Of a stretch of 64,000 nt of DNA, positions 26,947 to 51,367 are shown piece by piece. Position 1 is the first letter of the stretch, and every line of letters begins with the position of its first letter. The notes beneath the pieces were generated by a model that worked only from the letters and a program-made list of their open reading frames with translations, did not search any database and was not told where the DNA came from. This DNA is from Candidatus Hydrogenedens sp. Lineage in GTDB: Bacteria > Hydrogenedentota > Hydrogenedentia > Hydrogenedentales > CAITNO01. The stretch covers positions 80,425 through 144,424 of the forward strand of contig JAAYJV010000048.1 of assembly GCA_012522755.1 (NCBI GenBank). Direction: 5' to 3'. The position numbers and the translations under genes were made by a program.

Positions 26947-29900
26947 TTAAAGCGAAGTGTCTGAAAAGGTCATCAGCTCTACAAGGCGCCTGGACAGTTC
27001 GAGGGATTCGTTTTTCATCAACCAGGAAGCAAGGGCCTCAAGATCAGTCTGCATCATGGCCTTTTCTTCTTTCGTCCCGGGAAGAATTTTCCGGACATTT
27101 TCCAGATTTTCCTCGCCCTCCAGATAGCGGGCGGCTGTCTGATAGAACAGCAAAAGAGGGGCCTGGTCTTTATCTGAATTTTCAGGAAGGTGAAGCCCGG
27201 CCAGTTCCTTAAACTGTGCTGAAGTGAAGAGTTCACGGCCTCTTTCCTCAAAGAGGCTATAGAACAGGTTCGTGATTTCACTGTTCTCCGGATGCCTCTT
27301 TTGAAGGTCCCGCCAGAAGCGCACTCTGTCATTGAAATCCCGACTGAGCTTTACAGTGACATACAATGCGCGGGCAACTTCGGTGGCGTATCGACCTTCG
27401 AGCAATTGTGTGAGCCCTTCTTCGGCTGTTGTATACTCTCCGGCACCCGTAAACTGCTGGCTGGCTTTCAGCGAAAGTCGATCAGGATCCGGACTGTATT
27501 CAGAAGCCAGGAGCAATATATTTCCTGCAGTATGATGCAATCCTTTTCCTGAAAGATAAAAAGCTTCTTTTTCCAGTTCTTCAAAAATAAGAATATGATT
27601 TTCCGGATACTCGGCTGCAAGTGTTTTTATCTTCTCTGTTGTTTCTTCGATGGAATTGTTCTCCGCCTGGCTGATGGTATGGCTGATCATGATCTTCGGA
27701 TCAGTGGGATCCAGGGCATATGCTTTGTTATATGCTTCTTTCGCCAGGTTTTGTTCACCTTGCAAATTCAGAGCCATAGCCAGATAGAGGAAGAAAATGG
27801 CCTGATCCGGCACCTCGTCTGTCAAGGACTTCCAGAAGTCATGTTTTTCCTCGGGTGAAAAGCCATCAGACAAGAGAATGTGCGCCCGGGTGGCCGTGTC
27901 GGTGTCGCCGGGATGATTGTGCAGATAGTCTTTGTATATTTGCAGTGCTTCTCTTTTCATGCCCCCTCTTTCACAGGCTTCAATCTTCAAGAGGGAAACC
28001 CCTTCTTTTCTTTCAGGGGCTCGTGCTTCCAGTGCGTCAAGAGCGATGAGACAGCGTTCTGTTTCCCCGTCATAGAGACTCAGTCTGGCGATCAGTTCGA
28101 TAATTTCCAGGAGCCTCTCTTTTTCTGAAGGATCTTTTGTTTCTATTTCCAGTAGGCCATCAAGTGATTCGTCAAGCAGACTGAAGTCAATCAATCGGCC
28201 TGCAGGCAAAAGCCTGTCCATGGATCGATTGGAAAGAATCAATTGTGCTTTAGCCAGGAGAATAATCTGTTCCTCAGTCCCGAAACGTTGGGCGGCATTA
28301 AAAAAGAGCGTATTATTCAATTTCTCGTGCTCAGTATGGTGATAAAAAACGGGATCAGGGAGGCACTCAGCCGTGTAAAACAAGGGATTGGGTATTTCGT
28401 TGTCCACAGAAGCAAAAGACATCAAATGAGAAATGTCTTCTGGAAGATGCACCTCATAAAGCCCACGGAATTGTGATGCATACTCTTTTGGAACGGCAAT
28501 ACCGGTAAAATGGCCTCGTGCAATACGAAGACTTTCATCCAGTCGGGGCCCCAATACCTCATAGATAGGAAAGAAATAACGTAAAATGTCACCTTTCTGT
28601 TCTGTAACAGGGATATGCAGCAGTTGCGAAAAATCGTAATTCAAAAGCAGACTGTCGTAGCAGTGTAAGATATGACTGACATCGGAAGTGCCATCAAATT
28701 CAGCCATCAGATATTTCGCACGACTGTGAAAAATACCTATTTCAGAACTTGAACAGGCTGCTATCAATCGATACAGACTTCTGAGCTCGCTTTCCTGGCG
28801 GTCAGGTTTCGAGGAAGGAAGTGAGAAAAAAGTCCATCCGCAATGCTCTCTTTCAGAAAAAGGAAGTGCTTTTCGCGGGGCTTGGATGCAGCTCTTCATG
28901 ATCGGGCGTAATTGCCGCGTCTGATACCAGCGGAGAAGAGGCATAGGTACCAGGATCAGGCTCGCACAGAGTAAAAGAACGATTAGAGCCCCTTTGTAAT
29001 GTAAAGGACGGATGTGTCTGTTTCTCCGGATTCGTTTGATAAGAGTGTCAATCAAAATCCCTGTAATCAGAAAGGGGAAGAAGGAGAGGTGAAAAGTATG
29101 TCTGGAGACAGCCTGCAGTGCCGTATAACCCAGAATATAAGCGATGATCAGAAAGGTGAATAGGGCTGTACCGGGAGTTTGCAGTGCCAACAGAATAAAA
29201 ACCACAATAGCCAGAGGAAGTCCCGCATGATGCATGAAAAAAGCAAATGACTGATGGAGACGGTTGAAAAACTGATGAAGAACCGTAGGCTCTGAAAAGA
29301 AAGGAGGGAATGCATCTGTATACCTGAGGATCCGCCAGATAGCCGTCCAACCGCGGGTAGCCAGATCAGCCGGATAAAGGAAGACAGACTCTTGCAACCA
29401 GCGTTGCCCGGCAAGAGCCGCATCTTCATTATCAAAAAGTTGTGGTGTGGTCAGATCGGGAGTGCGTGCAGCGAAATCAGCAAGAACAGCGAAGGTATAG
29501 TAGTCGGCACCGGAGATCAGGCTCTGATAGGGAGCCTGTTTGATACCCAGTTGATCCATTCTGTCCCGTGCGAATCCCTGAACAAGCACATGTTGTGGTT
29601 GAGCGTTTCCATCAAAATGTTGGAACATGGGAGAGGCAAGGGCCAAAAATATACAGAGATAGAGAAATACGGGTGACAGAGTTTTCCACAGTGCCCGGTC
29701 TGTTTTCAGGAAAACAGGAAAAATCAGAATCAAAGCACAGAGGGGAAAAAAAATCAATGCATCCTGACGAAAACCCATGAAAATCCCGTGAACTGCACCC
29801 AGTGCCACTGCGCCCAGGATTTGAAAGCGCAGTGAGGGACGTCGGATAAAGAGCCAGAGCAACAGGCAAAAAAGCGTAATCGTGAAAGGAGCTTTACTGA

Positions 29901-30429
29901 AATCGCGCAGATCAAGAAGAAGCATGAATACGGCTGGTGAAACAGTGAGGAGGCAGGTGGATATAACGGCCAGACTCCGGGACAGAAAAAATCGAAAAAG
30001 AAAATACAGGGAAAGGGCATACCATCCCAGAAAGAGGGAGATAAAAGGCTCCAGTGTTCTCCAGGAGACACCGAATATGCGCCAGAAGAGACCGACAGCA
30101 TAGAGCAGATAACGGTGATAGAAGGCAACTGAGGATCCAATAGTCTTAATGTCTGCGGGTAGCTGATCTGTACAAAAGCTTTGCTGATCCCCTTTTAAAA
30201 AAGCCCAAAGTTCAGGATATTCACTGCGATCGGGATTAATAAAACCGTGACCGGCCGCTATCATTACGGCTGGTCCGTAAAGGTCTTCTATGGTGAAGAC
30301 AGCTGATTTGTCAGTACGAAGCGATTCAAAGTGCGCCAGCCCGGCCACAAATCCAAAGACAAAGAGAAGGAACGCAATAATCCACTCTTTGCGGCGATCA
30401 GAAAATGTGAGGGAGCTGGAATGATTCAT
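26947..30429 (-). CDS. Polytopic membrane-TPR fusion protein, paralog 1 (subfamily A); GT-C/TMTC/PMT-like architecture, function unknown
   Basis: The 1160-aa ORF is intact. A short basic N-terminal tail (…SDRRKEW) precedes TM1. About 12-13 predicted TM helices are present, with a roughly 150-aa loop between TM8 and TM9. Motifs HFESL, ELYGPAVMIAAGHGF, GFRQD, QPQHVLVQGFARDRMD and SGADYYTF are conserved across the array. A soluble middle domain of about 250 aa is followed by a C-terminal TPR-rich domain of about 450 aa (for example AYNKAYALDPTDPKI). The CDS itself is near certain, but the functional call is inference. Confidence 0.5.
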   Translation of the reverse strand: MNHSSSLTFSDRRKEWIIAFLLFVFGFVAGLAHFESLRTDKSAVFTIEDLYGPAVMIAAGHGFINPDRSEYPELWAFLKGDQQSFCTDQLPADIKTIGSSVAFYHRYLLYAVGLFWRIFGVSWRTLEPFISLFLGWYALSLYFLFRFFLSRSLAVISTCLLTVSPAVFMLLLDLRDFSKAPFTITLFCLLLWLFIRRPSLRFQILGAVALGAVHGIFMGFRQDALIFFPLCALILIFPVFLKTDRALWKTLSPVFLYLCIFLALASPMFQHFDGNAQPQHVLVQGFARDRMDQLGIKQAPYQSLISGADYYTFAVLADFAARTPDLTTPQLFDNEDAALAGQRWLQESVFLYPADLATRGWTAIWRILRYTDAFPPFFSEPTVLHQFFNRLHQSFAFFMHHAGLPLAIVVFILLALQTPGTALFTFLIIAYILGYTALQAVSRHTFHLSFFPFLITGILIDTLIKRIRRNRHIRPLHYKGALIVLLLCASLILVPMPLLRWYQTRQLRPIMKSCIQAPRKALPFSEREHCGWTFFSLPSSKPDRQESELRSLYRLIAACSSSEIGIFHSRAKYLMAEFDGTSDVSHILHCYDSLLLNYDFSQLLHIPVTEQKGDILRYFFPIYEVLGPRLDESLRIARGHFTGIAVPKEYASQFRGLYEVHLPEDISHLMSFASVDNEIPNPLFYTAECLPDPVFYHHTEHEKLNNTLFFNAAQRFGTEEQIILLAKAQLILSNRSMDRLLPAGRLIDFSLLDESLDGLLEIETKDPSEKERLLEIIELIARLSLYDGETERCLIALDALEARAPERKEGVSLLKIEACERGGMKREALQIYKDYLHNHPGDTDTATRAHILLSDGFSPEEKHDFWKSLTDEVPDQAIFFLYLAMALNLQGEQNLAKEAYNKAYALDPTDPKIMISHTISQAENNSIEETTEKIKTLAAEYPENHILIFEELEKEAFYLSGKGLHHTAGNILLLASEYSPDPDRLSLKASQQFTGAGEYTTAEEGLTQLLEGRYATEVARALYVTVKLSRDFNDRVRFWRDLQKRHPENSEITNLFYSLFEERGRELFTSAQFKELAGLHLPENSDKDQAPLLLFYQTAARYLEGEENLENVRKILPGTKEEKAMMQTDLEALASWLMKNESLELSRRLVELMTFSDTSL

Positions 30430-30458
30430 CTACGGCTGCTTTCTATAAAAACCGCCTT

Positions 30459-30468
30459 ATTCTAACAG
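30459..30468 (-). promoter_or_regulatory. Putative extended -10 element (TGTTAGAAT) of paralog 1
   Basis: On the coding strand, CTGTTAGAATAAGGCGG lies about 30 nt upstream of the ATG. The element is shared with the other five paralogs. Confidence 0.35.
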
Positions 30469-30663
30469 ACTTTGGAAGAGCTGACAAAGGAAAGAGAACT
30501 ATTGTCAAGGGCGCGAGTTCAATATCGAAACGCAATTTTTAGCAGACAAAAAGAGGAGCTGCTGCATCCGGGAAACAATCATCGGTATCGGCTCTCAGGC
30601 GAAAGGATGGTCAGGCTGTTCCCGAATAATGAAGATGGGAGGAGAAGAGATTGAAGGCTTGTC

Positions 30664-32871
30664 TCAGTTGATATAACCCAGCGCTTTTAAAATTTCTATC
30701 TCTAAAGGATCTACTGAAATCGCCGATTCTTGAGATTCTTCTTCCGGGCCCAAGCTGTTGAAAATCCTTGTCTGTTTCTCCATGTGCTGATCCAATAATT
30801 GACGAAAGGCTTCCATTTTCTCCGGATGTGTTTCGCTAAGGTCAACAAGTTCTTCCCGGTCTGATTGGAGGGAGAAAAGCTTTTCACCGTCCGTATCGAA
30901 ACGCCTGTACTTCCAACCGTCCTGAATCACACTCGCGTTCTCCTGTTTCCACGCCAGAAAAGAAAAAGTGGGAGTCGGGTTCAGCTTGCCGCCATTGAAC
31001 AGGGTCAGAAGGTTTCTCCCTTGATACACAGGCGGTACGGCAATTTCAGCCATAGCCGGAAGAGTGGCGGAGAGATCGGTGAGTGTCACTTCCTCTTGAC
31101 GTACAGAGGCGGGTATTCCGGGGCCGCTCATGATCAAAGGAATATGAATTTGATGCTCGTAAGGAACGAAGCTGTGTCCATAAAGCCCATGTTCGTGAAG
31201 AGCTTCTCCATGATCGGAAGTGAAAATAACAATTGTATTTTCCAGAAGATTCAGGTCAGCAAGTTTGTTATAAATTTTTCTGAAATTGTAATCTGCATAT
31301 GCAATAGCGGCATCGTATTGCTCTGACTCATTTGCTTCGGATGAAATTTCCCAAATCTCTTTGTGGGCTTGATCATCAAGAGGGCAAAGAGTCGGGTGCG
31401 GTTCCATCCTGTCGTGCACTTCCATAGTATGCACATATAAATAAAAGGGTCGATCCCGGTGTTTTTCCAGAAATTCAAAGGTACATTGCTCTGTTTTGTT
31501 GCATACCTCTGGTCCGTCGAGAGGATTTATCTGAAACAGTTTGGAAAACATTTTCTGAGAAAGCGATACGGGAGGCGAATAATTGTTCTGGGAAATCGCA
31601 CAAGTTTCATAGCCTTCCTGTCGCAACAAGGCGGGATAGAAGGGAGGTTCATTTTTATAGTGAAGGCCGTGAGAGCAGGTAAAACGATGAGCTGCACTGT
31701 CGATTCCCGAATGCAAAGACATCATGGAAGCTTTTGTGCAGGTTTCATGGGAACGATATTCTTGAAAAAGACTTCCTGATTTTGCCCATTCTTTTATGAA
31801 AGGTGCTGTGGGACGGTCATAACCGTATGCATCCAGGCGGTTTGCTTTCAAAGCATCAACCAGATAAACAAGAATATTGGGTTTCCGTGTTTCTTTTTTA
31901 TCTTGACGGGCTTCATAGATGGAGGGGTTGCTCCAGAGTACGGTTTGCCCGGCCTGTTCTGAAGATGCGGACAGTGTGACCTCCACTTCCTTTCCTGCAT
32001 AGGCCTTGAGACTGTATTGTTTATCGAGCCAGCGGTGATTGTTTTCAAGTTTTTCCTCAAGGAGCGATGTTGTAGCGCCATCACAGGTTATTGAAACTTG
32101 AAAGGTAACCGGGCTGTGTTCTTCCACAAAGTTCATCCCTGTCGCAAAAACAGGATTTTCGGGGAGTGTTAATCGGTACCGGAAAGATGCAGGTGTGTGG
32201 GCATAGATAACCTGTCGGAACTCTCCTACCATATATATATTTTTACAGCCAACAGGAATATCAGCGAAGTTGGAAGATTTTTTGCGCAACTCTATTTTGT
32301 GGATTTCAATCGTTGCCTGTCCATCAGTTTTGATTCTTAAACCATCTATGATATCAAGACGATTCCAGTACTCCAGGTTATCCAGACGAACGATATAACT
32401 GCGCGTCTGTCCGTCGGCAACCACTGGAAGCTTGAAAAAGCAATTATCAAAATGCTCCATTTCAAGCCAGTGTTTTAAAGAAAATCTCCAGTAAAAGCTG
32501 AGCTCCGATACACCCTCGACAGCCGCAGTGATTATCATCGCGTCAAAGTCCGGGGCGTATACATCGATATCTTCATGAAGAGAAAGAGTGCTTGCTTCCG
32601 CAGTATTCCAATGAAGTAAATCTTTCTTAATGGTGACCGTGTCTTGTTTGAAATCCGTGTTCTCATGCTCAAGGTCCGGCCAAATGACAACAGAGGTGGA
32701 AAAAGAAAGATCGCGGGAGCCGTGATGCAAGATTTCCGCATCGTCAATATGATCGTCCAGACGGTAACAGGAAAGCAGCTTGTCTTCATTACCAAATGCG
32801 GTGACGGAGACGCATACAATGATGAGTGAGAAAAAACAATACCATAGAACAGGATCCTGTTGCCGCTTCAT
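30664..32871 (-). CDS. Sulfatase-family (alkaline-phosphatase superfamily) protein lacking the CxPxR formylglycine motif; novel ~330-aa N-terminal domain
   Basis: Sulfatase hallmarks are present ('ILVYLVDALKANRLDAYG' and 'IVIFTSDHGEALHEHGLYGHS'). At the position of the sulfatase signature C-x-P-x-R the sequence reads 'ETCTKASMMSLHSG' (C-T-K-A-S). An N-terminal signal or anchor is present (VLWYCFFSLIIVCVSVTAFG). Confidence 0.6.
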   Translation of the reverse strand: MKRQQDPVLWYCFFSLIIVCVSVTAFGNEDKLLSCYRLDDHIDDAEILHHGSRDLSFSTSVVIWPDLEHENTDFKQDTVTIKKDLLHWNTAEASTLSLHEDIDVYAPDFDAMIITAAVEGVSELSFYWRFSLKHWLEMEHFDNCFFKLPVVADGQTRSYIVRLDNLEYWNRLDIIDGLRIKTDGQATIEIHKIELRKKSSNFADIPVGCKNIYMVGEFRQVIYAHTPASFRYRLTLPENPVFATGMNFVEEHSPVTFQVSITCDGATTSLLEEKLENNHRWLDKQYSLKAYAGKEVEVTLSASSEQAGQTVLWSNPSIYEARQDKKETRKPNILVYLVDALKANRLDAYGYDRPTAPFIKEWAKSGSLFQEYRSHETCTKASMMSLHSGIDSAAHRFTCSHGLHYKNEPPFYPALLRQEGYETCAISQNNYSPPVSLSQKMFSKLFQINPLDGPEVCNKTEQCTFEFLEKHRDRPFYLYVHTMEVHDRMEPHPTLCPLDDQAHKEIWEISSEANESEQYDAAIAYADYNFRKIYNKLADLNLLENTIVIFTSDHGEALHEHGLYGHSFVPYEHQIHIPLIMSGPGIPASVRQEEVTLTDLSATLPAMAEIAVPPVYQGRNLLTLFNGGKLNPTPTFSFLAWKQENASVIQDGWKYRRFDTDGEKLFSLQSDREELVDLSETHPEKMEAFRQLLDQHMEKQTRIFNSLGPEEESQESAISVDPLEIEILKALGYIN

Positions 32872-33168
32872 ATTTTATAATCCTTCCGGATGTACCAGAC
32901 AATACTTTAAAATCAAGAGCTGGCTGTTTCAACCATGGATGAACTGGTTAATTGTAACATCAATACTGTTCCCCGATGTAAAGGGATTCATGGATGACGA
33001 ATTATGAACCTGGCTTTTGGCGTGTTTTTCAGGAAAGGCTGTTCTGTCATCCGATGAATGGAGAAGAGGATAGAAAACCTTCCAGAGACCTCGTCCCAAG
33101 ACTCTCACTATCATCTCCCTGAACGATCACCTGGATTTTATCTGTATATTCCGAAAAAGCAATTTGTT

Positions 33169-36100
33169 TTATGGCAAAGAGACCCAAATGGCCATCAGTG
33201 CTGCCAGGCGGGCCGACTGTTCATGCCTTTCCTCTTTGGTCAGTGCAGATGCAAGAGATTCAAGATCGGCTGTCACCAGTGCTTTTTCCTCTTCCGTGAC
33301 AAAAAAGTTTCTTTGGATACTATCCAGATCTTCCTGTCCCTCCAGATAGCGGGCTATTGTCTGATAGAGCTGTAAAATGGGCCTTTGTTCTTTTGACATC
33401 CTTTGTGGAAGCTTCAGACGGCCCAATTCTTCCAGGGCCGCTGAGCTGAAGAGTTCATGGACTCTTTCCTCATGAAGCAGGTATAACAAGTCTGCTGTTT
33501 GGCTGTTGTCAGGGTGTGCCTCCAGAAGTCCGAGCCAGAAGTTTACACGCTCAGGAAAATCACGGCTGAGTTTGATTGTCACGTAAAGTGCCTGAGCGGC
33601 CTCTTCTCCATAATTGCTTTGAAGAAGTTCAAGAAGCCCCTTTTCAGCCTTTTCATAGTCTCCTGCGCCCGTAAACTGTTGATACGCTTTAAGTGTGAGC
33701 CGATCCGGATCGTCGCTGCAGTCGGCGGCCAGAAGCAACAGAGTCCCGGCCTTTTGATGCTGTTCTTTTTCGGAAAGGTAAAATGCTTCCCGTTCCAGAT
33801 GTTCAAAAATAAGGAGATCATTGTCCGGATAATCAGCTGCAAGTGTTTGAATATTTTCCACAGTTTCTTCTATCGGATTCTTGTCCGCTTGTGCAAGAGT
33901 ATGACAAATGCGGATCTTGGGGTTCTCTGGATCCAGGGCAAAGGCTCTGGCGTATGATTCTTTTGCCAGAGACTCTTTGTTGACAAGATCCAGTGCCATA
34001 GCCAGATAGAGATGGAAATGGGCCTGATCCGCAAATTGATCTGTGAGTGAGAGCCAGAAGGCCTGTTTTTCCTCTGAAGAAAAACCATCGGATAAGAGGG
34101 CATGCACCCGTGCAGCTGTGGATGTGTCTTCAGGATGAGTTCTGAGATAATCTTTGTATAGCTCCAGAGCCTCTTGCCTCATTCCGGCTCTTTCACAGGC
34201 TTCAATTTTCAAGAGAGAAATATTCCCTTTTCTTTCAGGAGCCCGTATTTCCAGAGCATCAAGAGCGGCCAGGCAATGTTCTGTTTCATCGTTGTAGAGG
34301 CTCAGTTTCGCAATCAGTTCCAGGCTGTCCAGAACCATCTCTCTTTCTGAATGATCCGTGGTTTTGATTTCCAAAATACCTTCCAGCGATTCATCAAGCC
34401 GGTTGAGGTTTATCAGTTTTTGGGCGGCCCAGATTTGATGAGTGGGATCTGTGGACAGAATCAATTCAGCTTGAGTAAATAAAATGCTTTGCTCTTCACT
34501 TCCGAAACGGCGGGCCGCTTGAGAAAAAAGTGTATTATTCACCTTCTCGTGTTCAGTGTGGTGATAGTAAACGGGATCCGGCCGGCATGCCGGTGTGTAA
34601 AACAAGGGACTGGGTATTTTGTCGTCCAGAGAAGTAAAGGCAATCAAATGGCTAAGGTCTTCAGGAGGATGAACCTCATAGAGTCCCCGGAAGTGCGAAG
34701 AAAATTCCTTTGGGATGGCAATACCTGAGAAATGACCGCGCGCCAGAACTAAAGCGTTGTCCGATCCCGGCCCGAATAATTCATATACAGGGAAAAAATA
34801 GCGTAACACCTTCCCTGTCTGTTCTGTTTTCGGAACACGGAGCAGTTGTGAAAAATTAAAATTCAAAATTTTGCTGTCATAGCAGTGCATAAGATGTGTG
34901 ATATTACAGGAGCCGTCAAATTCAGCCATCAGATATCTGGTACGCACATTCCAGAGGCGCAGTTCAGGGCTGAAAGATGCAGCCAGCAGCCTGTAAAGGC
35001 TTTTGATCTCACTGATACTGTTGTCGCTCTGAGCTGTCTCGAGACTGAAAAAAGTCCAACCGACGCGATCTTGTTTTGTATAGACCAGAGGGCTTCGCTG
35101 AGATTGAATGGCGTTTTCAAAAAGTGGAGCAAGTTGCCGGGTCTGATACCAACGCAGAAAGGGTATGGGCACAAGGATCAACGCTGTGCAGAACAAAAGA
35201 GTGGCCAGAGCGGCTGTATAGCGCTTTATCGGTAGAGGAAAGATAATTGACTGAGCAGTTCTTTTTTTCCTGATTTGCTTTATTACTGTCTCAATCAAAA
35301 ATCCAGCAATCAGAAAAGGGAAAAAAGAGAGATGAAAAGTGTGTCTGCAGACCACTTGTAAGGCTGTGTATCCCAGAATATAGGAGGTAAACAGAAAGAT
35401 GAACAGCGCTGTGAGCGGCGACTTCAAGGCTACCAGGAAAAAGGCCAGGATAGCCAAGGGAAGTCCTGCACGATGCATGAAAAAAGCAAAATAACGGTGA
35501 ACTTGATTGAAAAATCTATACAGTGCGTCAGGTTCGGAAAAAGAGGGTGGGAAAGCATCGGCATACCTGAGGATTCGCCAGATGGCTGACCAGCCACGGC
35601 TAGCCAAATCCGCTGGATGAAGAAAAATCGCCTCTTTCAGCCAGCGTTGCCCCGCTGTAACAGTATTTTCGTCATCGAAATGGACGGGTATGGACTGACC
35701 GGGATTGCGGGAAGCAAAATCGGAAAGCATGGAGAAAGTATAGTAATCCGCACCGGAGAGTGGGTGATGATAAGCGGCTTCTTTCATGCCCAACAGATCC
35801 ATTCTATCGCGAGCAAATCCTTGAACAAGCACATGCTGCGGTTGGGAACCTCCTTCCATGTGCTGAAGCAAGGGAGTGGCAAGAATGGCAAAAAGACTGA
35901 GATAGATAAGAAGGGGCGACAGACTTTTAAAACGCGCGACATTTGTTTTAAGAAAGACAGGAAATATCAGTACGCACATAGAGAGAGGAAGGAATATGAG
36001 GGCATCCTGACGAAAGCCCATGAAAATGCCGTGAAAAATTCCCAGTAACAGGGCGCCTCTTATTTGATAGCGCAAAGAGGACGCTGAAATAAGAAGCCAG

Positions 36101-36672
36101 AGCAGTATACAAAAGAGCGTGATAGTGAAAGGGGCCTTACTGAAATCGCGCAAATCCAAAACAAGCATGAATACAGCCGGCGAAACAGTTAAGAAAAGGG
36201 CGCATAGAAAAGCCAGGATGCGTGAGAGAAAAAAGCGAAATAAAAAATAGAGAGAAACAGCATACCATCCGAGAAAGAGGGAGATGAAGGGTTCCAAATT
36301 CTTCCAGGAGATACCGAAAATACGCCAGATGAGTGCCACGGCATACAACAGATAGCGGTGATAAGAGGCGACAGCGGAAGGGCGTTGTTCAATATTGGCC
36401 GGGAGGCTGGCGGGAGAAAAACTCTGTTTATCCCCCTCTAAAAACTGATGAAGTTCAGGATATAAGACATAATCAGGAACGATAAAACCATGACCGGAGG
36501 CCATCATCACAGCGGGACCATAGAGGCCGGGTATCAGAAAGACAGCAGATTTTTCGCCGCGAAGTGCCTCAAAGTGCGCCAGCCCTGTCAAAAACCCGAA
36601 AAAGAACAGAAGAACTGCGATAGTCCATTCTTTACGATGGGGAAAATATGTGCCGGCTCGGAGAGTATTCAT
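33169..36672 (-). CDS. Polytopic membrane-TPR fusion protein, paralog 2 (subfamily A)
   Basis: The 1167-aa product has the same architecture and conserved loop motifs as paralog 1. Its N-terminus is MNTLRAGTYFPHRKEWTIAVLLFFFGFLTGLAHFEALR. Confidence 0.5.
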   Translation of the reverse strand: MNTLRAGTYFPHRKEWTIAVLLFFFGFLTGLAHFEALRGEKSAVFLIPGLYGPAVMMASGHGFIVPDYVLYPELHQFLEGDKQSFSPASLPANIEQRPSAVASYHRYLLYAVALIWRIFGISWKNLEPFISLFLGWYAVSLYFLFRFFLSRILAFLCALFLTVSPAVFMLVLDLRDFSKAPFTITLFCILLWLLISASSLRYQIRGALLLGIFHGIFMGFRQDALIFLPLSMCVLIFPVFLKTNVARFKSLSPLLIYLSLFAILATPLLQHMEGGSQPQHVLVQGFARDRMDLLGMKEAAYHHPLSGADYYTFSMLSDFASRNPGQSIPVHFDDENTVTAGQRWLKEAIFLHPADLASRGWSAIWRILRYADAFPPSFSEPDALYRFFNQVHRYFAFFMHRAGLPLAILAFFLVALKSPLTALFIFLFTSYILGYTALQVVCRHTFHLSFFPFLIAGFLIETVIKQIRKKRTAQSIIFPLPIKRYTAALATLLFCTALILVPIPFLRWYQTRQLAPLFENAIQSQRSPLVYTKQDRVGWTFFSLETAQSDNSISEIKSLYRLLAASFSPELRLWNVRTRYLMAEFDGSCNITHLMHCYDSKILNFNFSQLLRVPKTEQTGKVLRYFFPVYELFGPGSDNALVLARGHFSGIAIPKEFSSHFRGLYEVHPPEDLSHLIAFTSLDDKIPSPLFYTPACRPDPVYYHHTEHEKVNNTLFSQAARRFGSEEQSILFTQAELILSTDPTHQIWAAQKLINLNRLDESLEGILEIKTTDHSEREMVLDSLELIAKLSLYNDETEHCLAALDALEIRAPERKGNISLLKIEACERAGMRQEALELYKDYLRTHPEDTSTAARVHALLSDGFSSEEKQAFWLSLTDQFADQAHFHLYLAMALDLVNKESLAKESYARAFALDPENPKIRICHTLAQADKNPIEETVENIQTLAADYPDNDLLIFEHLEREAFYLSEKEQHQKAGTLLLLAADCSDDPDRLTLKAYQQFTGAGDYEKAEKGLLELLQSNYGEEAAQALYVTIKLSRDFPERVNFWLGLLEAHPDNSQTADLLYLLHEERVHELFSSAALEELGRLKLPQRMSKEQRPILQLYQTIARYLEGQEDLDSIQRNFFVTEEEKALVTADLESLASALTKEERHEQSARLAALMAIWVSLP

Positions 36673-40351: not shown

Positions 40352-40382
40352 CTGCAGCGGCTTTCTTATGAAAAACTGCCTT

Positions 40383-43981: not shown

Positions 43982-44026
43982 GAGCTCACATTCCAGTAGA
44001 AAACAGTCTCATTCCATGGATTTTAT

Positions 44027-44036: not shown

Positions 44037-44167
44037 GTTTCGTTTCGATCTTGGCGCCATGGACCCTGTGTCAATTGTTTCGTCCTGCAGGCACCTGAAA
44101 TCTTCGACTGCGACTCAAAGAATCCTTTGTTTATATAAACAGCGTCCATGTGGCTATTATAAAGACA

Positions 44168-47100: not shown

Positions 47101-47677
47101 GCCAGAGCAGCAGACAAAAAAGCGTTATCGTGAAGGGAGCTTTACTGAAGTCCCTCAGGTCAAGAACAACCATGAATACCGCAGGCGATGCAATCAAAAG
47201 CAAAGAGGATAGAAAAGCCAGACAGCGCGACAGGAAAAACCGTAAAAGGAAATAAAGAGACAGGGCATACCACCCCAGAAATAAGGCTATGAAAGGTTCC
47301 AGAGTTTTCCAGGAGATACCGAAAATACGCCAGATGAAACCCACCGCATAGAGCAGATAACGATGATAAAAGGCCGCGGCGGAGTAGCCTGTTTCAATGT
47401 CTTCAGGAAGATGATCTGGAGAGAGGTCGTCCTGATTTACCCTTAAAAAATCCTGAAACTCTGGATATTCCGCGTAATCGGGAACGATAAACCCGTGCCC
47501 CATAGCTATCATCACGGCGGGCCCATAGAGATCTTCTATGGGAACAATGGCGGATGTATCCTGGCGGAGGGATTCAAAATGTGCCAGTCCAGCCAAAAAT
47601 CCGAAGAGGAAAAGCAGCGTTGCAATTATCCAGTCTATGCGGCGATCAAGATATGTACTTGTGCTGGAATGATTCAT
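44168..47677 (-). CDS. Polytopic membrane-TPR fusion protein, paralog 5 (subfamily A)
   Basis: The product is 1169 aa, with N-terminus MNHSSTSTYLDRRIDWIIATLLFLFGFLAGLAHFESLRQD. It carries the conserved loops and TPR C-terminus. Confidence 0.5.
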   Translation of the reverse strand: MNHSSTSTYLDRRIDWIIATLLFLFGFLAGLAHFESLRQDTSAIVPIEDLYGPAVMIAMGHGFIVPDYAEYPEFQDFLRVNQDDLSPDHLPEDIETGYSAAAFYHRYLLYAVGFIWRIFGISWKTLEPFIALFLGWYALSLYFLLRFFLSRCLAFLSSLLLIASPAVFMVVLDLRDFSKAPFTITLFCLLLWLFTKRHSLRSQILGAVLLGMLHGIFMGFRQDALIFLPLCICLLLFFVFMKKDLALWKALTPLFLYLSLFFALAMPMFQSLEGNAQPQHVLVQGFARDRMDQLGMKQASYQSLLSGADYYTFSMLSDFASRTPDLTTPQLHNDPDTMAAGQRWLQESVFLYPADLVTRGWTAIWRILRYADAFPSCFTEPTVFHQYFNSVHRSFAFFMHRAGLPLGILAIFLVALRFPGTAMAFFLISSYILGYTALQTACRHTFHLSFFPFLITAFLIEILVKQIWKRKQTHSTAHSVPQKQYKAAMGVLLLCASLVVLPMPLLRWYQARQLRPIFESCIQAPRTRLPFTKKEYRNWTLFTLDLPQPDSCRSDLEALYRLIAACSNPELHFWNVRTRYILAEFDGSTDITDLLHCYNSRILNFNFSQLLHMPVTKLSGDVLRYFFPVYEVVAHDEVYKAYVARGRFSGIALPREFSSQLRGLYEVDLPEEVTHLMAFTSLDDKIPSPLFYTPDCFPDPVSYQHIEHKKINNTFFSEAAQRYGTQEQLTFFTEVESILFLFNEPIDQIRMVNKFMNFRRFQDAIELALQIETTDSEEREMLLETLKLIAQLSLYEGETKRCLYALEALETLIPEHRTRASLLKIEACERAGMKEEALEIYRDYLKEHPDDESAVTHAHILLSHGFTSEEKHAFWQSLTDHIPDQAYFQLYLAMALDLQGKEFPATEAYNKAFALDPNDPKIMICHLIAQAEHNPREETVENIKHFAIEYPENKILVFQQLEKKAFFLSEKGLHEKAGSLLLLAARYSPESEGLILQAHQQFTGAGDYAKAEKGLMTLLSGDYGQEAAQALYVTVKLSRDFADRLHFWLGLQETHPNNSTITSLLYTMYEDRARELFVSAQMEELGSLNLPDSMDTGKTPFLLLYQAIARYMKGQGDLKTISRDFPVTTEEKEKVGSDLASLGASLNLEDNQEQSERIAEVMHFLDLIP

Positions 47678-47710
47678 TTGTTACCGTTCTGGAATAAGCA
47701 GCAATGGGTT

Positions 47711-47720
47711 ATTTTAACAG
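47711..47720 (-). promoter_or_regulatory. Putative extended -10 element (TGTTAAAAT) of paralog 5
   Basis: On the coding strand, GCCTGTTAAAATAACC lies about 35 nt upstream of the ATG at 47677. Confidence 0.35.
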
Positions 47721-47815
47721 GCCCTTCACTGAGAGAGCAATGGGATAAACGAGGTGTCGAGATTGTTACGATACTTTCTTTGAAGTGTAAATTGCCTTTC
47801 GCCCTTGTGTCCGAC

Positions 47816-50800
47816 TCATGAAGCATTCTCCAAAATATTTTGCAACAGTGCTATTCGCTCAGCTCTTTTCGAACTTGCGTCTGTTGTCAGGGCAATTGCC
47901 AGAGATTTCAAATCAGAGGAAATGGTTTCCCGACTGTTTTCCAACCTGGCGAGTGCGCTTTGAATAGTGTCCAGTTTTTCCAGCCCTGTTATATAGCGGG
48001 CAATTTTCGGATATAAAAGGGGAAAACAATTCTCTTCAATAAAATCTCCTTTTGGGGGAGAAAGATCGATGAGTTCTTCCAAGCGCGCGGATATGAAAAG
48101 TTCACGCACTGCTTCTTCGTATGCAGCGGTGAGTATGGAAGAAATGTTTTCATTGTCCGGGTGATTGTTTTGAAGGTCCAGCCAGAAGTGAAAGCGATCG
48201 GGGGAGTCCCGGTTTAACTTTGTAGTTATATAAAGTGCTTGTGCAGCTTCGTGAGCACAGGAGCCTTCGAGAAGTGTGAGTAATCCATCTTCAGCTATCT
48301 GGTAATCACCAGCTCCTGTAAATTGTTGATGTGCCCTTAAAATAAGAGTGTCGCGGTTGTTGCCATACTCTGCGGCCAGAAGAAGTAATCTCGCCGCTTT
48401 GTCATGCCGCCCTTTTTCACTTGAATACCAGGCTTCTTTCTCCAGACGTTCAACGATGAAAACATGTTCTTGTGGGTGAAGCGCAGCCAAGTCCATGATT
48501 TGGTGTTTTGTTTCTTCAAAAGTCGTATTTTCAGATTCTATCACGGTGTGACAGATTATATTCTGGGGATCTGTCGGATCCAGTTTATAAGCTCTACGAT
48601 AAGCGTCTTTGGCAAGATCTTCTTTATCCAGCAGATCCAAAGCCAATGCGAGATAGCGAAGAAAAAGAGGCTCATCGGGAGTTGTATCGACAAGATACAG
48701 CCAGAAGGCGTATTTCTCCTCGGGAGATAAAAAGTCGTACATCAGAATATGAGCACCTGCAGCACTCGACTGATCTTCGGGAGAGAGACGAAGATATTTC
48801 TGATAAACTTCCAGAGCTTCCTTTTTTAAACCGGTTCTTTCATAGGCTTCGATGCGAAGGAGAGCCGACTGCGAATATTTTTCTGGTTCGAGGGCTTCCA
48901 TTGCATCAAGAGCAGCCAGACAATATTCTATTGGACCCTGATAAAGGTACAATTTTGCGATCAGTTCCAGAGTGTCCCAAAGCAACCTCTTGTTTTGAAA
49001 GTTTATTGCTTCGTCAGCCGATGTATTTCCCAGCGATTTTTCCTGCTGATTATGAATTATAAGATTTTGGACAGCTGGAAACTGCAACTGAGGCTCATCG
49101 GCCAGGATCACTTGCGCTTCAGAAAAAAGTACTGCTTCTGGTTTTTTATGAAATCGTTTGGCTGCTTCAGAAAATGCCGTATTGCGAAATTTCCGAGCTT
49201 CGGTGTGATAGTAATAGAGAGGATCTGGAAGACTGTCGGGACTGCAGTATAGTGGATTGGGAATTTTGTCATCCACGCAAGCAAAAGATATGAGGTGCGT
49301 AATTTCTTTCGGGAGCCGGATTTCATAAAGGCCTGAAAAATGTGGAGCCAGTTCTTTTGGAACAGCAATCCCTTTAAAGCTGTTCCGTGCAAAGGATACA
49401 GTGCCGTGCCATTCAGGTTTTAACAGTTCATAAACAGGAAAAAAATAACGCAATTTCTCTCCTGATTGTCGAACTTTGGGAAGACGGAGTAATTGTGAAA
49501 AATTGTTATCTAAAGTTGGTGCGCCATAGAGGTGCATCAGATGATTGAGGTCAGCAGTAGCCTCAAACTCAGCCATCAGATATTTTTCTCGTGAATGCCA
49601 TAGCTTTAATTCTTTATTGAAACATGCAGCCGCCAGCTTATACAGGCCCTTAAGTTCACTTGGGCTGCTGTCGGTCTCAGAAGACTCAAGCGAAAAGATA
49701 GTCCATCCCCAACAGTCTTCTTGTGAAACAGATAGTGGAGTTCTTGGCGCCTGAATGCAGTTTTCAATAATCGGGCGCAACTGTTGAGTTTGATGCCAGC
49801 GAAACATCCATAACGGCGGAAAAATTATAAAAAAGCAGGAAAGAAGTGTTCCCCAAAAAAAATAAGGATTTCTTTTCTGATCCAGGCTGACAGCAGCACT
49901 GGGGTTCTCTACTGACCATAGCTTCTTTATGAGGGCCTCCAGACAAAAGCAGAGCACAAGTAAAGAGGTAAATGAGAGATGAAAGCTGTGTCGGGAAGAG
50001 GCCTGGAGTGAGGTATATCCCAAGACATAAGATGTTGCCAGAAATAACCACAGCGCTTGCGCAGGAAATTGCCTGGCCAGAAGAATGAAAGCGGTAATGG
50101 CGAGCGGTACACCTGCGTAATGCATGGCAAAAGCAAAAGAACGATGGAGATCATAGATAAAATTGTGAGTTCTTGTCGGTTCTGAAAAAGAAGGTGGAAA
50201 GGCGCTGGAATATCTGAAGCTCTGACACACCGCAGCCCAGGCACGGGCAATAAGATCAGCCGGGTAGAGGAAGGCGGACTCCTGCAGCCATCGCTGTCCG
50301 ATAATCTCGGATTGCTTGTCGTTAGAAAAATCCGGCGTGCTCAGATCCGGGCTGCGATCCGCAAAGCTGTACAGCATGGCAAAAGTATAATAATCAGCAC
50401 CAGAGAGCACGGTGTAGTAAGGAGCTTCTTTCATACCCAAAAGATCCAGGCGATCTTTGGCAAAACCCTGTACAAGTGCGTGTTGTGGTTGAGCTGCTCC
50501 TTCCATGCGTTTCAGCAGAGGGGATGACAGGAGAAAAAAAAGGCTCAGATAGATAAGCAGAGGAAACAACCGTTTCCATCGTTCGGTATCCGGTTTGAGT
50601 AGAATCGGAAAAGTAAGCACACAAACACACAAGGGAAAAAGTACCAAGGTGTCCTGGCGAAAGCCCAGAGCAATACCATGGACTGTTCCCAATACTGCTG
50701 CAGCTATTATCTGAAACTGAAGGTGGGTACGCTTATTGAACAGCCAGAGCAAAATGCATAAAAGCGTTACCGTGAAAGGGGCTTTGCTGAAATCACGCAG

Positions 50801-51322
50801 ATCAGGAAGTACAGTCATTACGGCTGGTGAAACAATAAAAAAGAGTGTAGACAAAAGCGATAATATGCGGGAGAGAAAAAAGCGAAAAAGAAGGTATAAG
50901 GAAACAGCATACCATCCCAGCATGACTGAGATGACAATTTCCAGATGCGCCCAAGAAATACCGAAAATACGCCAGACAGCAGCCACCATATAGAGCAGAT
51001 AACGGTGGTATGCCGCAACAGCGGATGAAGTGGTTTCGATATCTGCAGGAAGAAGATCTTTGGAAAAAGTTTCCTGCTCTCCTTCCAAAAACTTGTGGAG
51101 TTCAGGGTAGAGAGACTGATCTGGAGAAAGAAAACCATGTCCACATGCCATCATTAATGCGGGACCGTATAGCTCTACAACGACAAAAACTGCTGACTTC
51201 CCATCCTCTCGCAGTGATTCAAAATGCACCAGGCCCACGGTAAGACCGTAAAGAAAAAGAAGAAGTATGCATAGCCATTCCTTAGGGTGATGTTTGCGGG
51301 CATTGTCTGTGTGTTTGCTCAT
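47816..51322 (-). CDS. Polytopic membrane-TPR fusion protein, paralog 6 (subfamily B)
   Basis: The start was set at the ATG at 51322 (MSKHTDNARK…) by analogy with paralog 4. The ORF track extends to a TTG at 51343. The product is about 1168 aa. Confidence 0.5.
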   Translation of the reverse strand: MSKHTDNARKHHPKEWLCILLLFLYGLTVGLVHFESLREDGKSAVFVVVELYGPALMMACGHGFLSPDQSLYPELHKFLEGEQETFSKDLLPADIETTSSAVAAYHRYLLYMVAAVWRIFGISWAHLEIVISVMLGWYAVSLYLLFRFFLSRILSLLSTLFFIVSPAVMTVLPDLRDFSKAPFTVTLLCILLWLFNKRTHLQFQIIAAAVLGTVHGIALGFRQDTLVLFPLCVCVLTFPILLKPDTERWKRLFPLLIYLSLFFLLSSPLLKRMEGAAQPQHALVQGFAKDRLDLLGMKEAPYYTVLSGADYYTFAMLYSFADRSPDLSTPDFSNDKQSEIIGQRWLQESAFLYPADLIARAWAAVCQSFRYSSAFPPSFSEPTRTHNFIYDLHRSFAFAMHYAGVPLAITAFILLARQFPAQALWLFLATSYVLGYTSLQASSRHSFHLSFTSLLVLCFCLEALIKKLWSVENPSAAVSLDQKRNPYFFWGTLLSCFFIIFPPLWMFRWHQTQQLRPIIENCIQAPRTPLSVSQEDCWGWTIFSLESSETDSSPSELKGLYKLAAACFNKELKLWHSREKYLMAEFEATADLNHLMHLYGAPTLDNNFSQLLRLPKVRQSGEKLRYFFPVYELLKPEWHGTVSFARNSFKGIAVPKELAPHFSGLYEIRLPKEITHLISFACVDDKIPNPLYCSPDSLPDPLYYYHTEARKFRNTAFSEAAKRFHKKPEAVLFSEAQVILADEPQLQFPAVQNLIIHNQQEKSLGNTSADEAINFQNKRLLWDTLELIAKLYLYQGPIEYCLAALDAMEALEPEKYSQSALLRIEAYERTGLKKEALEVYQKYLRLSPEDQSSAAGAHILMYDFLSPEEKYAFWLYLVDTTPDEPLFLRYLALALDLLDKEDLAKDAYRRAYKLDPTDPQNIICHTVIESENTTFEETKHQIMDLAALHPQEHVFIVERLEKEAWYSSEKGRHDKAARLLLLAAEYGNNRDTLILRAHQQFTGAGDYQIAEDGLLTLLEGSCAHEAAQALYITTKLNRDSPDRFHFWLDLQNNHPDNENISSILTAAYEEAVRELFISARLEELIDLSPPKGDFIEENCFPLLYPKIARYITGLEKLDTIQSALARLENSRETISSDLKSLAIALTTDASSKRAERIALLQNILENAS

Positions 51323-51367
51323 GAACTGAAATTCCAGCAGCAAAAAGTCTCATTATATATATGGGTT

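What the first reader, a model, noticed from the sequence alone, without database searches (positions are those of the whole stretch)
26947..51343. 24-kb tandem array of six ~1,165-aa paralogous membrane-TPR proteins with GT-C/TMTC-like architecture
Six intact, co-oriented genes of 3.48-3.53 kb each occupy more than a third of the window. Each product has a short basic cytoplasmic tail ending in R(K/R)xW and about 12-13 TM helices. An acidic residue follows TM1 directly (HFE/HFD), and a roughly 60-aa first extracytoplasmic loop carries 'ELYGPAxMMAxGHGF'. A roughly 150-aa loop between TM8 and TM9 contains the invariant 'QPQHxLVQGFAxDRxD' and 'SGADYYTF'. A soluble middle domain of about 250 aa and a C-terminal TPR domain of about 450 aa follow. 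A polytopic domain with a catalytic-looking first loop plus a TPR domain is the architecture of GT-C glycosyltransferases such as eukaryotic TMTC1-4/PMT O-mannosyltransferases and bacterial GT39/PMT_2-TPR proteins. Six tandem copies, each 1.1-1.2 kDa, are a very unusual dosage for such enzymes. The neighbourhood is glycan-centred: a sulfatase-family gene inside the array, an SGNH hydrolase upstream, and giant Ig-like surface proteins nearby. This suggests a multi-specificity envelope or protein glycosylation system. I could not place the family in any named Pfam by eye.
Basis: partly seen in the sequence, partly recalled or inferred. Interest (0 to 1): 0.8.

Follow-up and report, generated by a model that had tools for sequence, protein, structure and literature searches.

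The report
Six-gene array of unnamed GT-C glycosyltransferases
Six neighbouring genes in an uncultured Hydrogenedens bacterium encode large membrane enzymes with the fold of lipid-linked-sugar glycosyltransferases; they belong to an unnamed, fairly widespread family that most likely decorates the cell envelope from the outside of the inner membrane.

Summary
Six intact, co-oriented paralogs of 1,160-1,169 aa (49-73% identical) lie at 26947-51343. A sulfatase-like gene interrupts them and an SGNH-like gene precedes them.

The core interpretation also holds:
- Charge distribution supports 11 TM helices, N-terminus in and C-terminus out, with every invariant polar residue on the periplasmic side.
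- A CBM-like beta-sandwich and a TPR-like tail follow the membrane domain.

The proteins are not members of TMTC, PMT or ArnT. No Pfam model hits their membrane domain, and the acid after TM1 that looks catalytic is not conserved across the family. They belong to an unnamed family of at least 150 clusters at 50% identity, found mostly in Hydrogenedentota MAGs.

In 22 of 75 genomes a family member lies within 10 kb of an ArnC/GtrB-type polyprenyl-phosphate glycosyltransferase. In some genomes it occupies the ArnT position of an Arn-like amino-sugar operon. This supports a polyprenyl-phosphate-sugar donor.

The array grew in place from a conserved two-gene B-A pair. The acceptor and the sugar are unknown.

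The parts
26947..30429 (-). Paralog 1 (A-type), 1160 aa, identical to database protein P0002. GT-C membrane domain aa 1-494 (nt 28948-30429); beta-sandwich aa ~517-690 (nt 28360-28881); TPR-like tail aa ~700-1160 (nt 26950-28332).
30664..32871 (-). Sulfatase-family (alkaline-phosphatase superfamily) gene inserted in the array, 735 aa. It has an N-terminal anchor, a ~330-aa domain of unknown family, then the sulfatase domain. The nucleophile motif reads CTKAS rather than CxPxR.
   Evidence: Pfam Sulfatase 6e-40, residues 331-605. NCBIfam arylsulfatase, choline-sulfatase and PEtN-transferase hits, all below their cutoffs. Full-length orthologue (38% identity over 708 aa) lies two genes upstream of a family member in L003 and next to one in L012.
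33169..36672 (-). Paralog 2 (A-type), 1167 aa
36854..40351 (-). Paralog 3 (A-type), 1165 aa
40475..43981 (-). Paralog 4 (B-type), 1168 aa, identical to P0004
44168..47677 (-). Paralog 5 (A-type), 1169 aa, identical to P0001
47816..51322 (-). Paralog 6 (B-type), 1168 aa from the ATG at 51322, identical to P0003. The mechanical ORF extends to a TTG at 51343.
51368..52948 (-). Membrane-anchored SGNH/GDSL-like protein, 526 aa, immediately upstream of the array. It is the most consistent partner of the family in other genomes. In this lineage the block I serine and the block V histidine are replaced (IGDDST; DFRD).
   Evidence: Weak Pfam NonGDSL and Lipase_GDSL_2 matches. 46% identical orthologue at the same position in L001. 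Homologues next to family genes in L005, L006, L007, L012, L014, L024, L028, L043, L083 and L084. Catalytic-motif alignment.

Best explanation
Each of the six genes encodes an inner-membrane glycosyltransferase of the GT-C superfamily, from a family that no database names.

The proposed mechanism, inferred from fold, topology, conservation and gene context, has three steps:
1. A cytoplasmic-face GT2 enzyme of the ArnC/GtrB type loads a sugar onto undecaprenyl phosphate. This gene is not in the window.
2. The lipid-linked sugar is flipped to the periplasmic face.
3. The 11-helix GT-C domain binds it at the periplasmic membrane surface and transfers the sugar to an envelope acceptor.

The likely phosphate and lipid-head-group contacts are the invariant basic residues R146, R175, K179, R221, R443, H444 and H447. 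The likely metal ligands or catalytic base are the invariant acids D176 (EL2), D223 (EL3) and D309/D355 (EL4). The CBM-like beta-sandwich after the last helix holds the acceptor, which is most likely a glycan chain. The C-terminal TPR-like solenoid docks partner proteins, probably including the SGNH-like and sulfatase-like proteins encoded alongside.

The array is an in-place expansion of a conserved two-gene unit: a B-type gene followed by an A-type gene, downstream of the SGNH-like gene. The two types probably act as a pair or in succession. The extra copies add further specificities.
For: Fold:
- The AF2 model of residues 1-730 has pLDDT 86.7 and pTM 0.85.
- The Foldseek top 19 are all GT-C.

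Sequence link: PMT_2 is the only non-TPR Pfam family hit recurrently, in 20 of 59 family members (best 1.9e-6). Single hits to DUF2079 and TMEM260-like also occur.

Topology: an 11-TM reading with N-in and C-out fits the positive-inside rule at every loop, including IL5, which has 6 K/R and no D/E.

Conservation over 178 members: R146, R175, D176, K179, R221, D223, D309, D355, R359, R443, H444 and Q503 are each 97-100% conserved. All are present in the six paralogs. D176, R221 and R443 sit where ArnT D158, ArnT K203 and the EL5 arginine are described (PMC7801869). This placement is by topology only.

Donor:
- An ArnC/GtrB-type GT2 lies within 10 kb in 22 of 75 GTDB loci, and within 1.5 kb in 12.
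- Its density is 5.9 per 100 kb next to the gene, against 0.5-1.9 per 100 kb at 3-10 kb.
- Six of these GT2 genes were scanned; their best NCBIfam matches are PgfS and ArnC over the full length.
- In L020, L021 and L047 the order is dehydratase/epimerase, DegT aminotransferase, acetyltransferase, GT2, family gene. That is an Arn-like operon with the family member in the ArnT position.

Pair origin: the order SGNH, B, A is found in L083 and L084, and SGNH followed by two family copies in L001/L010, within flanks syntenic to the window. The NJ tree separates first-position (B) genes from second-position (A) genes.
Against: - The aspartate or glutamate at the start of EL1, reported as universal and essential in characterised GT-C enzymes (PMC7801869; PMC11127046), is not conserved here. 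No EL1 column exceeds 50% acidic residues, and about 20 full-length members have no D/E between TM1 and the GPAVM motif.
- No sequence-level match links the window proteins to any solved structure or Pfam/NCBIfam glycosyltransferase model.
- hhalign against an ArnT alignment found nothing, although that alignment was very shallow.
- No GT2 donor synthase or flippase is encoded in the 64-kb window.
- Residue roles are assigned from topology, because model coordinates could not be inspected.
- Nothing here is experimental.
Confidence: 0.7

Rival explanations
1. The six proteins are protein O-glycosyltransferases in the manner of TMTC, TMEM260, PMT or the streptococcal Pgf system. The TPR domain would select folded Ig-like or beta-propeller surface proteins encoded nearby, and the GT-C domain would glycosylate them. 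Six paralogs would then mean six sets of client proteins.
For: - The layout of 11 TM helices, a long TM7-TM8 loop and a C-terminal TPR is that of TMTC1-4, which act on cadherin domains (PMC7801869).
- Large Ig-like surface proteins lie in the window and in the syntenic L001.
- A 2,032-aa FG-GAP protein sits directly upstream of the family gene in L003.
- Among the six GT2 neighbours scanned, PgfS, the GT2 of a surface-protein glycosylation system, is the best or second-best NCBIfam match (PMC5856776 listed).
- One family member hits TMEM260-like at 4.9e-3.
Against: - The domain right after the last TM helix is CBM-like, as in the glycan-directed GT136, Emb and AftD enzymes (PMC11127046).
- Many family members (~700 aa) have no TPR at all, so the TPR is an accessory.
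- The Ig-like genes are on the other strand, several kb away, inside a conserved syntenic backbone. They have no Ser/Thr-rich stretches.
- No DUF1736 or PMT match, and no conserved DD/DE motif in EL1.
- Some relatives sit in Arn-like amino-sugar operons or next to a GT9 heptosyltransferase gene, which suggests lipid or glycan acceptors.
Confidence: 0.2
2. The proteins keep the GT-C fold but are not conventional glycosyltransferases. Lacking the EL1 catalytic acid and rich in invariant Arg and His, they might handle a polyprenyl-diphosphate-linked glycan as a ligase or polymerase in the manner of WaaL or Wzy. They might instead transfer a non-sugar group, or act as non-catalytic lipid-binding scaffolds like PIG-U/Gab1 for the SGNH-like and sulfatase-like partners.
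For: - No conserved acid in EL1.
- Seven invariant basic residues lie on the periplasmic face.
- The family constantly partners with alkaline-phosphatase-superfamily and SGNH-fold proteins, which could carry the chemistry.
Against: - Four invariant aspartates (D176, D223, D309, D355) on the same face are hard to explain for a pure scaffold.
- Tight linkage to monophosphate-type ArnC/GtrB GT2 genes and Arn-like operons indicates the ordinary GT-C reaction with a polyprenyl-monophosphate sugar.
- In the window lineage it is the SGNH-like partner that has lost its catalytic Ser and His, not the GT-C protein its conserved residues.
Confidence: 0.1
3. The N-terminal domain is a transporter or protease rather than an enzyme of glycan assembly.
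For: It is a polytopic membrane domain with no Pfam assignment. A MacB-type ABC transporter is encoded just upstream.
Confidence: 0.02

Closest known systems
GT136 (Citrobacter youngae ORF12) and bacterial three-component extracytoplasmic glycosylation systems (PMC11127046)
   Same: The core is the same: an 11-TM GT-C domain followed by a beta-rich CBM after the last helix, facing the periplasm. The family is genetically coupled to a polyprenyl-phosphate-sugar synthase in many genomes.
   Different: The window has no donor synthase or flippase. A ~450-aa TPR-like tail is added. The catalytic aspartate after TM1 (D31 in ORF12) has no conserved counterpart. Sequence similarity to GT136 could not be tested.
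ArnT (GT83) and the arn operon
   Different: No detectable sequence similarity: hhalign probability was 0.2 against a shallow ArnT alignment, and the window proteins have no PMT or PMT_2 hit. There is no conserved EL1 Asp. The C-terminal beta-sandwich and TPR are extra.
TMTC1-4 (GT105) and TMEM260, eukaryotic GT-C + TPR protein O-mannosyltransferases
   Same: 11 TM helices, long EL1 and TM7-TM8 loops on the non-cytoplasmic side, and a C-terminal TPR domain on that side.
   Different: No DUF1736 or TMEM260-like match for the window proteins. No DD motif. A beta-sandwich sits between the membrane domain and the TPR. The proteins are bacterial. The acceptor is unknown.
EmbA-EmbB, EmbC and AftD of mycobacteria; Pmt1-Pmt2 of yeast
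   Same: These are GT-C enzymes with C-terminal CBMs that hold the acceptor glycan (Emb, AftD; PMC11127046). They are also paralogous GT-C proteins that work as heterodimers, a possible model for the conserved B-A gene pair. That they are heterodimers comes from my own knowledge of the 7bvf and 6p25 structures.
   Different: Hetero-oligomerisation of the B and A types is only inferred from conserved gene order. There is no sequence similarity. The donor sugar is unknown.
Bacterial PMT_2-TPR proteins (Pfam PF13231 plus TPR)
   Same: The domain logic is the same. A third of distant family members reach weak PMT_2 scores.
   Different: The six window proteins and most of the family fall outside the PMT_2 model. 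The family has its own invariant motifs: GPAVM-A-G-GF, LRDFSKAPF, GFRQD, FPAD, RHxFH and RxYQ.

Membership tests
GT-C glycosyltransferase superfamily (fold level) | GT-C fold of the polytopic membrane domain | tested here: met
GT-C glycosyltransferase superfamily (fold level) | Long first extracytoplasmic loop with short helices, a second long loop, and the active face on the non-cytoplasmic side | tested here: met
   EL1 (residues 38-105) contains helices 52-58 and 72-78, and EL4 spans residues 270-382. The positive-inside count supports 11 TM helices with N-in and C-out. No dedicated topology predictor was available.
GT-C glycosyltransferase superfamily (fold level) | Catalytic Asp/Glu at the start of EL1, directly after TM1 | tested here: not met
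   E/D35 is present in all six paralogs. Family-wide, position 35 is R, A or F, no EL1 column exceeds 50% acidic, and about 20 full-length members have no acid before the GPAVM motif.
GT-C glycosyltransferase superfamily (fold level) | Conserved Asp in EL2, basic residue in EL3, and phosphate-binding Arg in EL5 before TM10 (as in ArnT, TMTC and OST) | tested here: inconclusive
   D176 (98%), R221 (100%) and R443 (100%) lie in the topologically matching loops. No structure-based residue alignment could be made.
GT-C glycosyltransferase superfamily (fold level) | Polyprenyl-phosphate-linked sugar donor | tested here: inconclusive
   At family level, an ArnC/GtrB-type GT2 is within 10 kb in 22 of 75 loci and within 1.5 kb in 12, and Arn-like operons occur. 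No such gene is in this window.
PMT_2 / GT39 / GT83 (Pfam PF13231, PF02366) | Match to the family profile above its gathering score | tested here: not met
   No PMT_2 or PMT hit for any of the six at E<=1. P0027 reaches 28.6 bits against a cutoff of 26.1, and 20 of 59 relatives hit at E<=0.1. This indicates clan-level kinship only.
TMTC (GT105) | DUF1736 loop between TM7 and TM8, and a DD motif in EL1 | tested here: not met
   No DUF1736 hit. No conserved DD/DE motif.
TMTC (GT105) | 11 TM helices with a C-terminal TPR domain on the non-cytoplasmic side | tested here: met
   Topology. TPR_14 is above its cutoff in three paralogs, and the profile hits TPR structures. Longer relatives carry strong TPR matches.
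GT136 / Emb / AftD type (GT-C with C-terminal CBM) | Beta-rich carbohydrate-binding-like domain after the last TM helix | tested here: met
GT136 / Emb / AftD type (GT-C with C-terminal CBM) | Sequence similarity to a characterised member (the CAZy criterion) | not tested
   No CAZy library or GT136 sequence was available. No PDB chain, including Emb, AftA, AftB and AftD, matches the family profile by sequence.
Sulfatase family (inserted gene 30664-32871) | Pfam Sulfatase domain with metal-site residues | tested here: met
   PF00884 at 6e-40, 137.8 bits. The DHG motif is present in the sequence.
Sulfatase family (inserted gene 30664-32871) | C/S-x-P-x-R formylglycine motif | tested here: not met
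   The sequence reads ETCTKASMMSLHSG. The L003 orthologue reads ETCTKPSVMTLHTG.
SGNH hydrolase (upstream gene 51368-52948) | Block I nucleophile Ser and block V DxxH histidine | tested here: not met
   The window has IGDDST and DFRD where distant homologues have IGGSTT and DxCH. L083 and L084 are also degenerate. Pfam scores are below their cutoffs.

The most novel reading that the evidence does not exclude
This could be a GT-C family with a rebuilt active site. It would lack the EL1 catalytic aspartate and rely on EL2/EL3/EL4 acids and an Arg/His-rich face. It would work as obligate heterotypic B-A pairs together with a catalytically dead SGNH-like subunit and a non-canonical sulfatase-like enzyme. 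The six-gene expansion would then give a combinatorial set of complexes that build or decorate a Hydrogenedentota-specific envelope polymer or its Ig-like surface proteins.
Probability: 0.2. Interest if true: 0.75.

Novelty: new variant of a known kind. Interest (0 to 1): 0.55.

Why it matters
GT-C enzymes build essential and antigenically important envelope structures, including N- and O-glycoproteins, lipid A modifications and mycobacterial arabinan. New families are still being founded one at a time; GT136 dates from 2024.

This locus exposes a sizeable family that sources annotate only as 'hypothetical' or 'TPR protein'. It has at least 150 clusters at 50% identity and is spread over several phyla of uncultured bacteria. 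The family has a clear GT-C fold and a recurrent genetic link to polyprenyl-phosphate-sugar synthesis, yet it lacks the aspartate regarded as the universal catalytic residue. If it is active, it would widen the accepted active-site repertoire of GT-C enzymes.

The conserved B-A pair, the degenerate SGNH-like partner and the sulfatase-like partner together define a testable multi-protein module. The six-fold expansion suggests that envelope glycan diversity matters to Hydrogenedens, a lineage whose cell surface is essentially unknown.

Tried and rejected
- Sequence searches against all PDB chains, using the full-length profile, the 730-aa profile and the membrane-domain-only profile, returned only TPR proteins or noise.
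- The 25-sequence alignment A2 kept about 270 TPR columns as profile positions. As a result, the counts from the exhaustive representative search (211,138 hits at E<=0.001; 2,784 at 1e-30) are inflated by TPR-only proteins. Only the top 150, all of which cover the membrane domain, were used.
- The word-indexed homologue search greatly under-reports the family, finding 40 and 13 hits.
- hhalign of the family profile against an E. coli/Citrobacter ArnT alignment gave probability 0.2. That alignment had Neff 1.6, so the result is uninformative rather than negative.
- The afdb50 fold library was not installed.
- Promoter and terminator scans of the array were at chance level. The intergenic regions share no repeats.
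- Residues fixed differently in the A and B clades number only 20 and are mostly conservative, so they give no clue to specificity.
- Horizontal transfer was considered as an explanation for the low GC of the block. It is disfavoured because the locus is syntenic in relatives, and the two family genes in L001 show a milder version of the same GC3 dip.
- The neighbouring Ig-like proteins were considered as Ser/Thr-rich O-glycosylation clients. No such stretches were found.


Full report
OBSERVATION. The window carries six intact ORFs on the minus strand: 26947-30429, 33169-36672, 36854-40351, 40475-43981, 44168-47677 and 47816-51343. The last more probably starts at the ATG at 51322, as in database protein P0003. 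They encode 1,160-1,169 aa. The six align over their full length at 49-73% identity. At DNA level they form six copies with a 3.62-3.70 kb period and 60-82% identity, with no near-identical tracts. They are therefore old, individually maintained paralogs, not a recent amplification or an assembly artefact.

A 735-aa sulfatase-family gene (30664-32871) separates copy 1 from copy 2. A 526-aa SGNH-like gene (51368-52948) lies 24-45 bp upstream of copy 6. Four of the six products are identical to proteins from a Candidatus Hydrogenedens sp. MAG (GX130_03160 to GX130_03185), named there only as hypothetical, TPR or PilF-like.

ANATOMY. Pfam and NCBIfam see only one to three weak TPR units between residues ~770 and 1050. 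They see nothing in the first ~750 residues.

An AlphaFold2 model of residues 1-730 of copy 1, built on 25 homologues, is confident (pLDDT 86.7, pTM 0.85). It shows a helical membrane bundle up to residue ~494, a long stalk helix, and a beta-sandwich at ~517-690.
- The top 19 Foldseek hits are also all GT-C.

TOPOLOGY AND CONSERVED RESIDUES. The basic N-terminus and the strongly basic loop 466-480 (6 K/R, no acid) must both be cytoplasmic. This requires an odd total of 11 spanning helices, with the hydrophobic segment 151-171 acting as a non-spanning hairpin. Every other loop then also obeys the positive-inside rule.

This places EL1 (38-105), the hairpin with LRDFSKAPF (EL2), GFRQD (EL3), the 113-aa loop 270-382 (EL4), RHxFH (EL5) and the whole C-terminal part outside the cytoplasm. 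It is the same plan as described for TMTC1-4 and for GT136 ORF12.

Across 178 family members, R146, R175, D176, K179, R221, D223, D309, D355, R359, R443, H444 and Q503 are each 97-100% conserved. All six window proteins keep them. D176, R221 and R443 sit in the loops where ArnT D158, ArnT K203 and the phosphate-binding EL5 arginine of ArnT, TMTC and OST are described. This correspondence rests on topology, not on superposition.

In the family as a whole no EL1 position is more than 50% acidic. About twenty full-length members have no acid at all before the GPAVM motif.

THE FAMILY. The word-indexed search found only 40 relatives. The exhaustive search of 1.84 billion cluster representatives returned 150 listed proteins, all with E<1e-155 and all spanning the membrane domain plus beta-sandwich. 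Many are about 700 aa, so the TPR tail is optional.

A scan of one genome per GTDB species for the RDFSKAPF motif found 75 loci. Most are in Hydrogenedentota MAGs. Others are in Nitrospirales, Acidobacteriota, Gammaproteobacteria, Opitutales, Desulfobulbaceae and elsewhere. No organism with a family member is cultured. Several genomes carry three to five copies on different contigs. Within 10 kb the maximum elsewhere is three, so six in a row is the largest cluster seen.

When 59 members were scanned individually, PMT_2 was the only non-TPR Pfam family hit repeatedly (20 of 59, best 1.9e-6). DUF2079 and TMEM260-like each appeared once. The family is thus a remote, un-modelled branch related to the PMT_2 group of GT-C families. 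The family profile matches no solved structure by sequence.

CONTEXT AND ORIGIN OF THE ARRAY. The flanks are conserved in a related metagenomic contig (L001 = L010, Hydrogenedentes ADurb.Bin170). On one side lie GFO oxidoreductase, aldolase, HAD, MacB/FtsX and ABC genes. On the other lie an ODP/flavodoxin gene, HAD, GH123 and an Ig-like protein gene. That contig holds only two family genes after the SGNH-like gene, and no sulfatase gene. Two further contigs (L083, L084) show ABC, a 39x-aa protein, SGNH-like, and then two family genes.

A neighbour-joining tree puts the first-position genes with window copies 4 and 6 (clade B, bootstrap 82-100). It puts the second-position genes with copies 1, 2, 3 and 5 (clade A, bootstrap 78-100). 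The window order is SGNH, B, A, B, A, A, sulfatase, A. The array is therefore an in-situ expansion of an ancestral B-A pair. A duplication of the B-A unit is the simplest reading, since copies 6/4 are 73% identical and copies 5/3 are the closest A pair.

Homologues of the SGNH-like gene lie next to family genes in the window and in L001, L005, L006, L007, L012, L014, L024, L028, L043, L083 and L084. In L007 and L014 an SGNH domain is fused to a TPR domain. Full-length orthologues of the unusual sulfatase-like protein accompany family genes in L003 and L012.

THE DONOR. This is the most informative context result. An ArnC/GtrB-type GT2, found by tblastn with E. coli ArnC, is present in 22 of the 75 GTDB loci. 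It is within 1.5 kb of the family gene in 12 of them. Its density falls about ten-fold beyond 3 kb. Six of these GT2 genes were scanned. They match PgfS and ArnC models over their full length, though below the equivalog cutoffs.

In L020, L021 and L047 (Hydrogenedentota) the order is dehydratase/epimerase, DegT aminotransferase, PglD-like acetyltransferase, GT2, family gene. The family member thus sits where ArnT sits in the arn operon. DegT/ArnB-like genes occur in 14 loci and ArnA-like genes in 5. The window itself has no such gene.

MECHANISM (inferred). A polyprenyl-phosphate sugar made by a GT2 encoded elsewhere is flipped to the periplasmic face. The basic face of the GT-C domain binds it there. 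One or more of the invariant aspartates D176, D223, D309 and D355 replace the missing EL1 acid as base or metal ligand. The sugar is transferred to an acceptor presented by the CBM-like domain. The TPR tail docks partners.

Shown here: gene structure, paralogy, fold, conservation, gene neighbourhoods and the history of the array. Inferred: topology, residue roles, donor class, acceptor class and pairing of the B and A types.

COMPARISON. The core works like, and is built like, GT136 ORF12 and the Emb/AftD enzymes (GT-C plus C-terminal CBM). Some relatives are operon-level analogues of ArnT. The TPR tail recalls TMTC and TMEM260. Membership in any of these families fails on the sequence criterion. 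The superfamily's hallmark EL1 acid is not conserved. I therefore file this as a new, divergent family within the GT-C superfamily.

RIVALS.
- A protein-directed (TMTC/Pgf-like) role remains possible at about 0.2. The optional TPR, the CBM-like domain and the Arn-like and LPS-like contexts weaken it.
- A non-canonical or non-catalytic role, prompted by the missing EL1 acid, is rated at about 0.1. The four invariant aspartates and the GT2 linkage argue against it.
- A transporter or protease reading is excluded by the fold search.

LIMITS.
- Model coordinates could not be inspected.
- No topology predictor, CAZy library or HHpred database was available.
- The ArnT profile was too shallow for a fair hhalign test.
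- All organisms are uncultured.
- Nothing is experimental.

Noticed in passing
window 30664-32871 (-); orthologues L003:1405-3750 and L012:3130-5295: The sulfatase-family protein has CTKAS (CTKPS in L003) where sulfatases have the C/S-x-P-x-R formylglycine motif, yet it keeps the DHG metal motif. It also has a ~330-aa N-terminal domain with no Pfam match. It may not be a sulfatase at all, and could instead be a phospho- or other transferase or hydrolase of the alkaline-phosphatase superfamily.
   Followed up: partly
window 51368-52948 (-); L083:2384-3970; L084:2378-3961: The SGNH-like partner has lost the canonical catalytic residues in this lineage. Block I reads IGDDST, DDAT or DDVV instead of GGSTT, and block V reads DFRD, DFRQ or SFTR instead of DxxH. 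Distant homologues in L006 and L007 keep both. It is possibly a pseudo-enzyme that serves as a binding subunit.
   Followed up: partly
window 26947-52948: The whole block from the SGNH-like gene to paralog 1 has GC3 of 0.41-0.47, against 0.52-0.65 in the flanking genes. The two family genes in syntenic L001 show a milder dip. This looks more like weak codon bias in low-expression genes than recent transfer, but it is unresolved.
   Followed up: partly
L020:5831-12556; also L021 and L047: These are Arn-like operons in other Hydrogenedentota: dehydratase/epimerase, DegT aminotransferase, PglD-like acetyltransferase, ArnC-like GT2, then a member of this family in place of ArnT.
   Followed up: partly
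L014:10881-13058 and L007:12253-14361: Single proteins here combine an SGNH/GDSL domain with a TPR domain, and are encoded between or beside family copies. This links the three modules that in the window are split differently (TPR fused to the GT-C protein). L014 also has three family copies, a GT2 and a GT9 heptosyltransferase gene within 15 kb.
   Followed up: partly
window 10890-13457 (+) and 20644-24258 (+): Two large surface proteins each have seven Bact_surface_Ig-like repeats, a signal peptide, and a C-terminal hydrophobic segment followed by basic residues (for example ...TPATGFLGLALAASLSALAGGLALRKRD). This resembles an exosortase/PEP-CTERM-type sorting tail. The TPR region of paralog 1 also weakly hits the PEP-CTERM TPR protein PrsT (5.9e-7).
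   Followed up: no
window 4724-6271 (+): An M14 zinc carboxypeptidase carries a C-terminal dockerin type I domain (E 1.6e-4, just below the cutoff), which is unusual outside cellulosome-forming Firmicutes.
   Followed up: no
window 14581-16029 (-) and 16148-17116 (-): A PcfJ-like protein (a family known from conjugative elements) sits beside a 322-aa protein with no Pfam match. In the window the first Ig-like gene lies nearby. The 322-aa gene has a 321-aa counterpart at the same place in L001.
   Followed up: no
window 8489-10741 (+) and 61572-63989 (-): Two large ORFs (750 aa and 805 aa) have no significant Pfam match. The 805-aa product has only faint glycoside-hydrolase-like hints.
   Followed up: no
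window 58531-61600 (-): An asparagine synthase (AsnB-type) gene lies next to a GT4 glycosyltransferase gene about 6-9 kb upstream of the array. Such pairs are common in exopolysaccharide loci. No link to the array was established.
   Followed up: no
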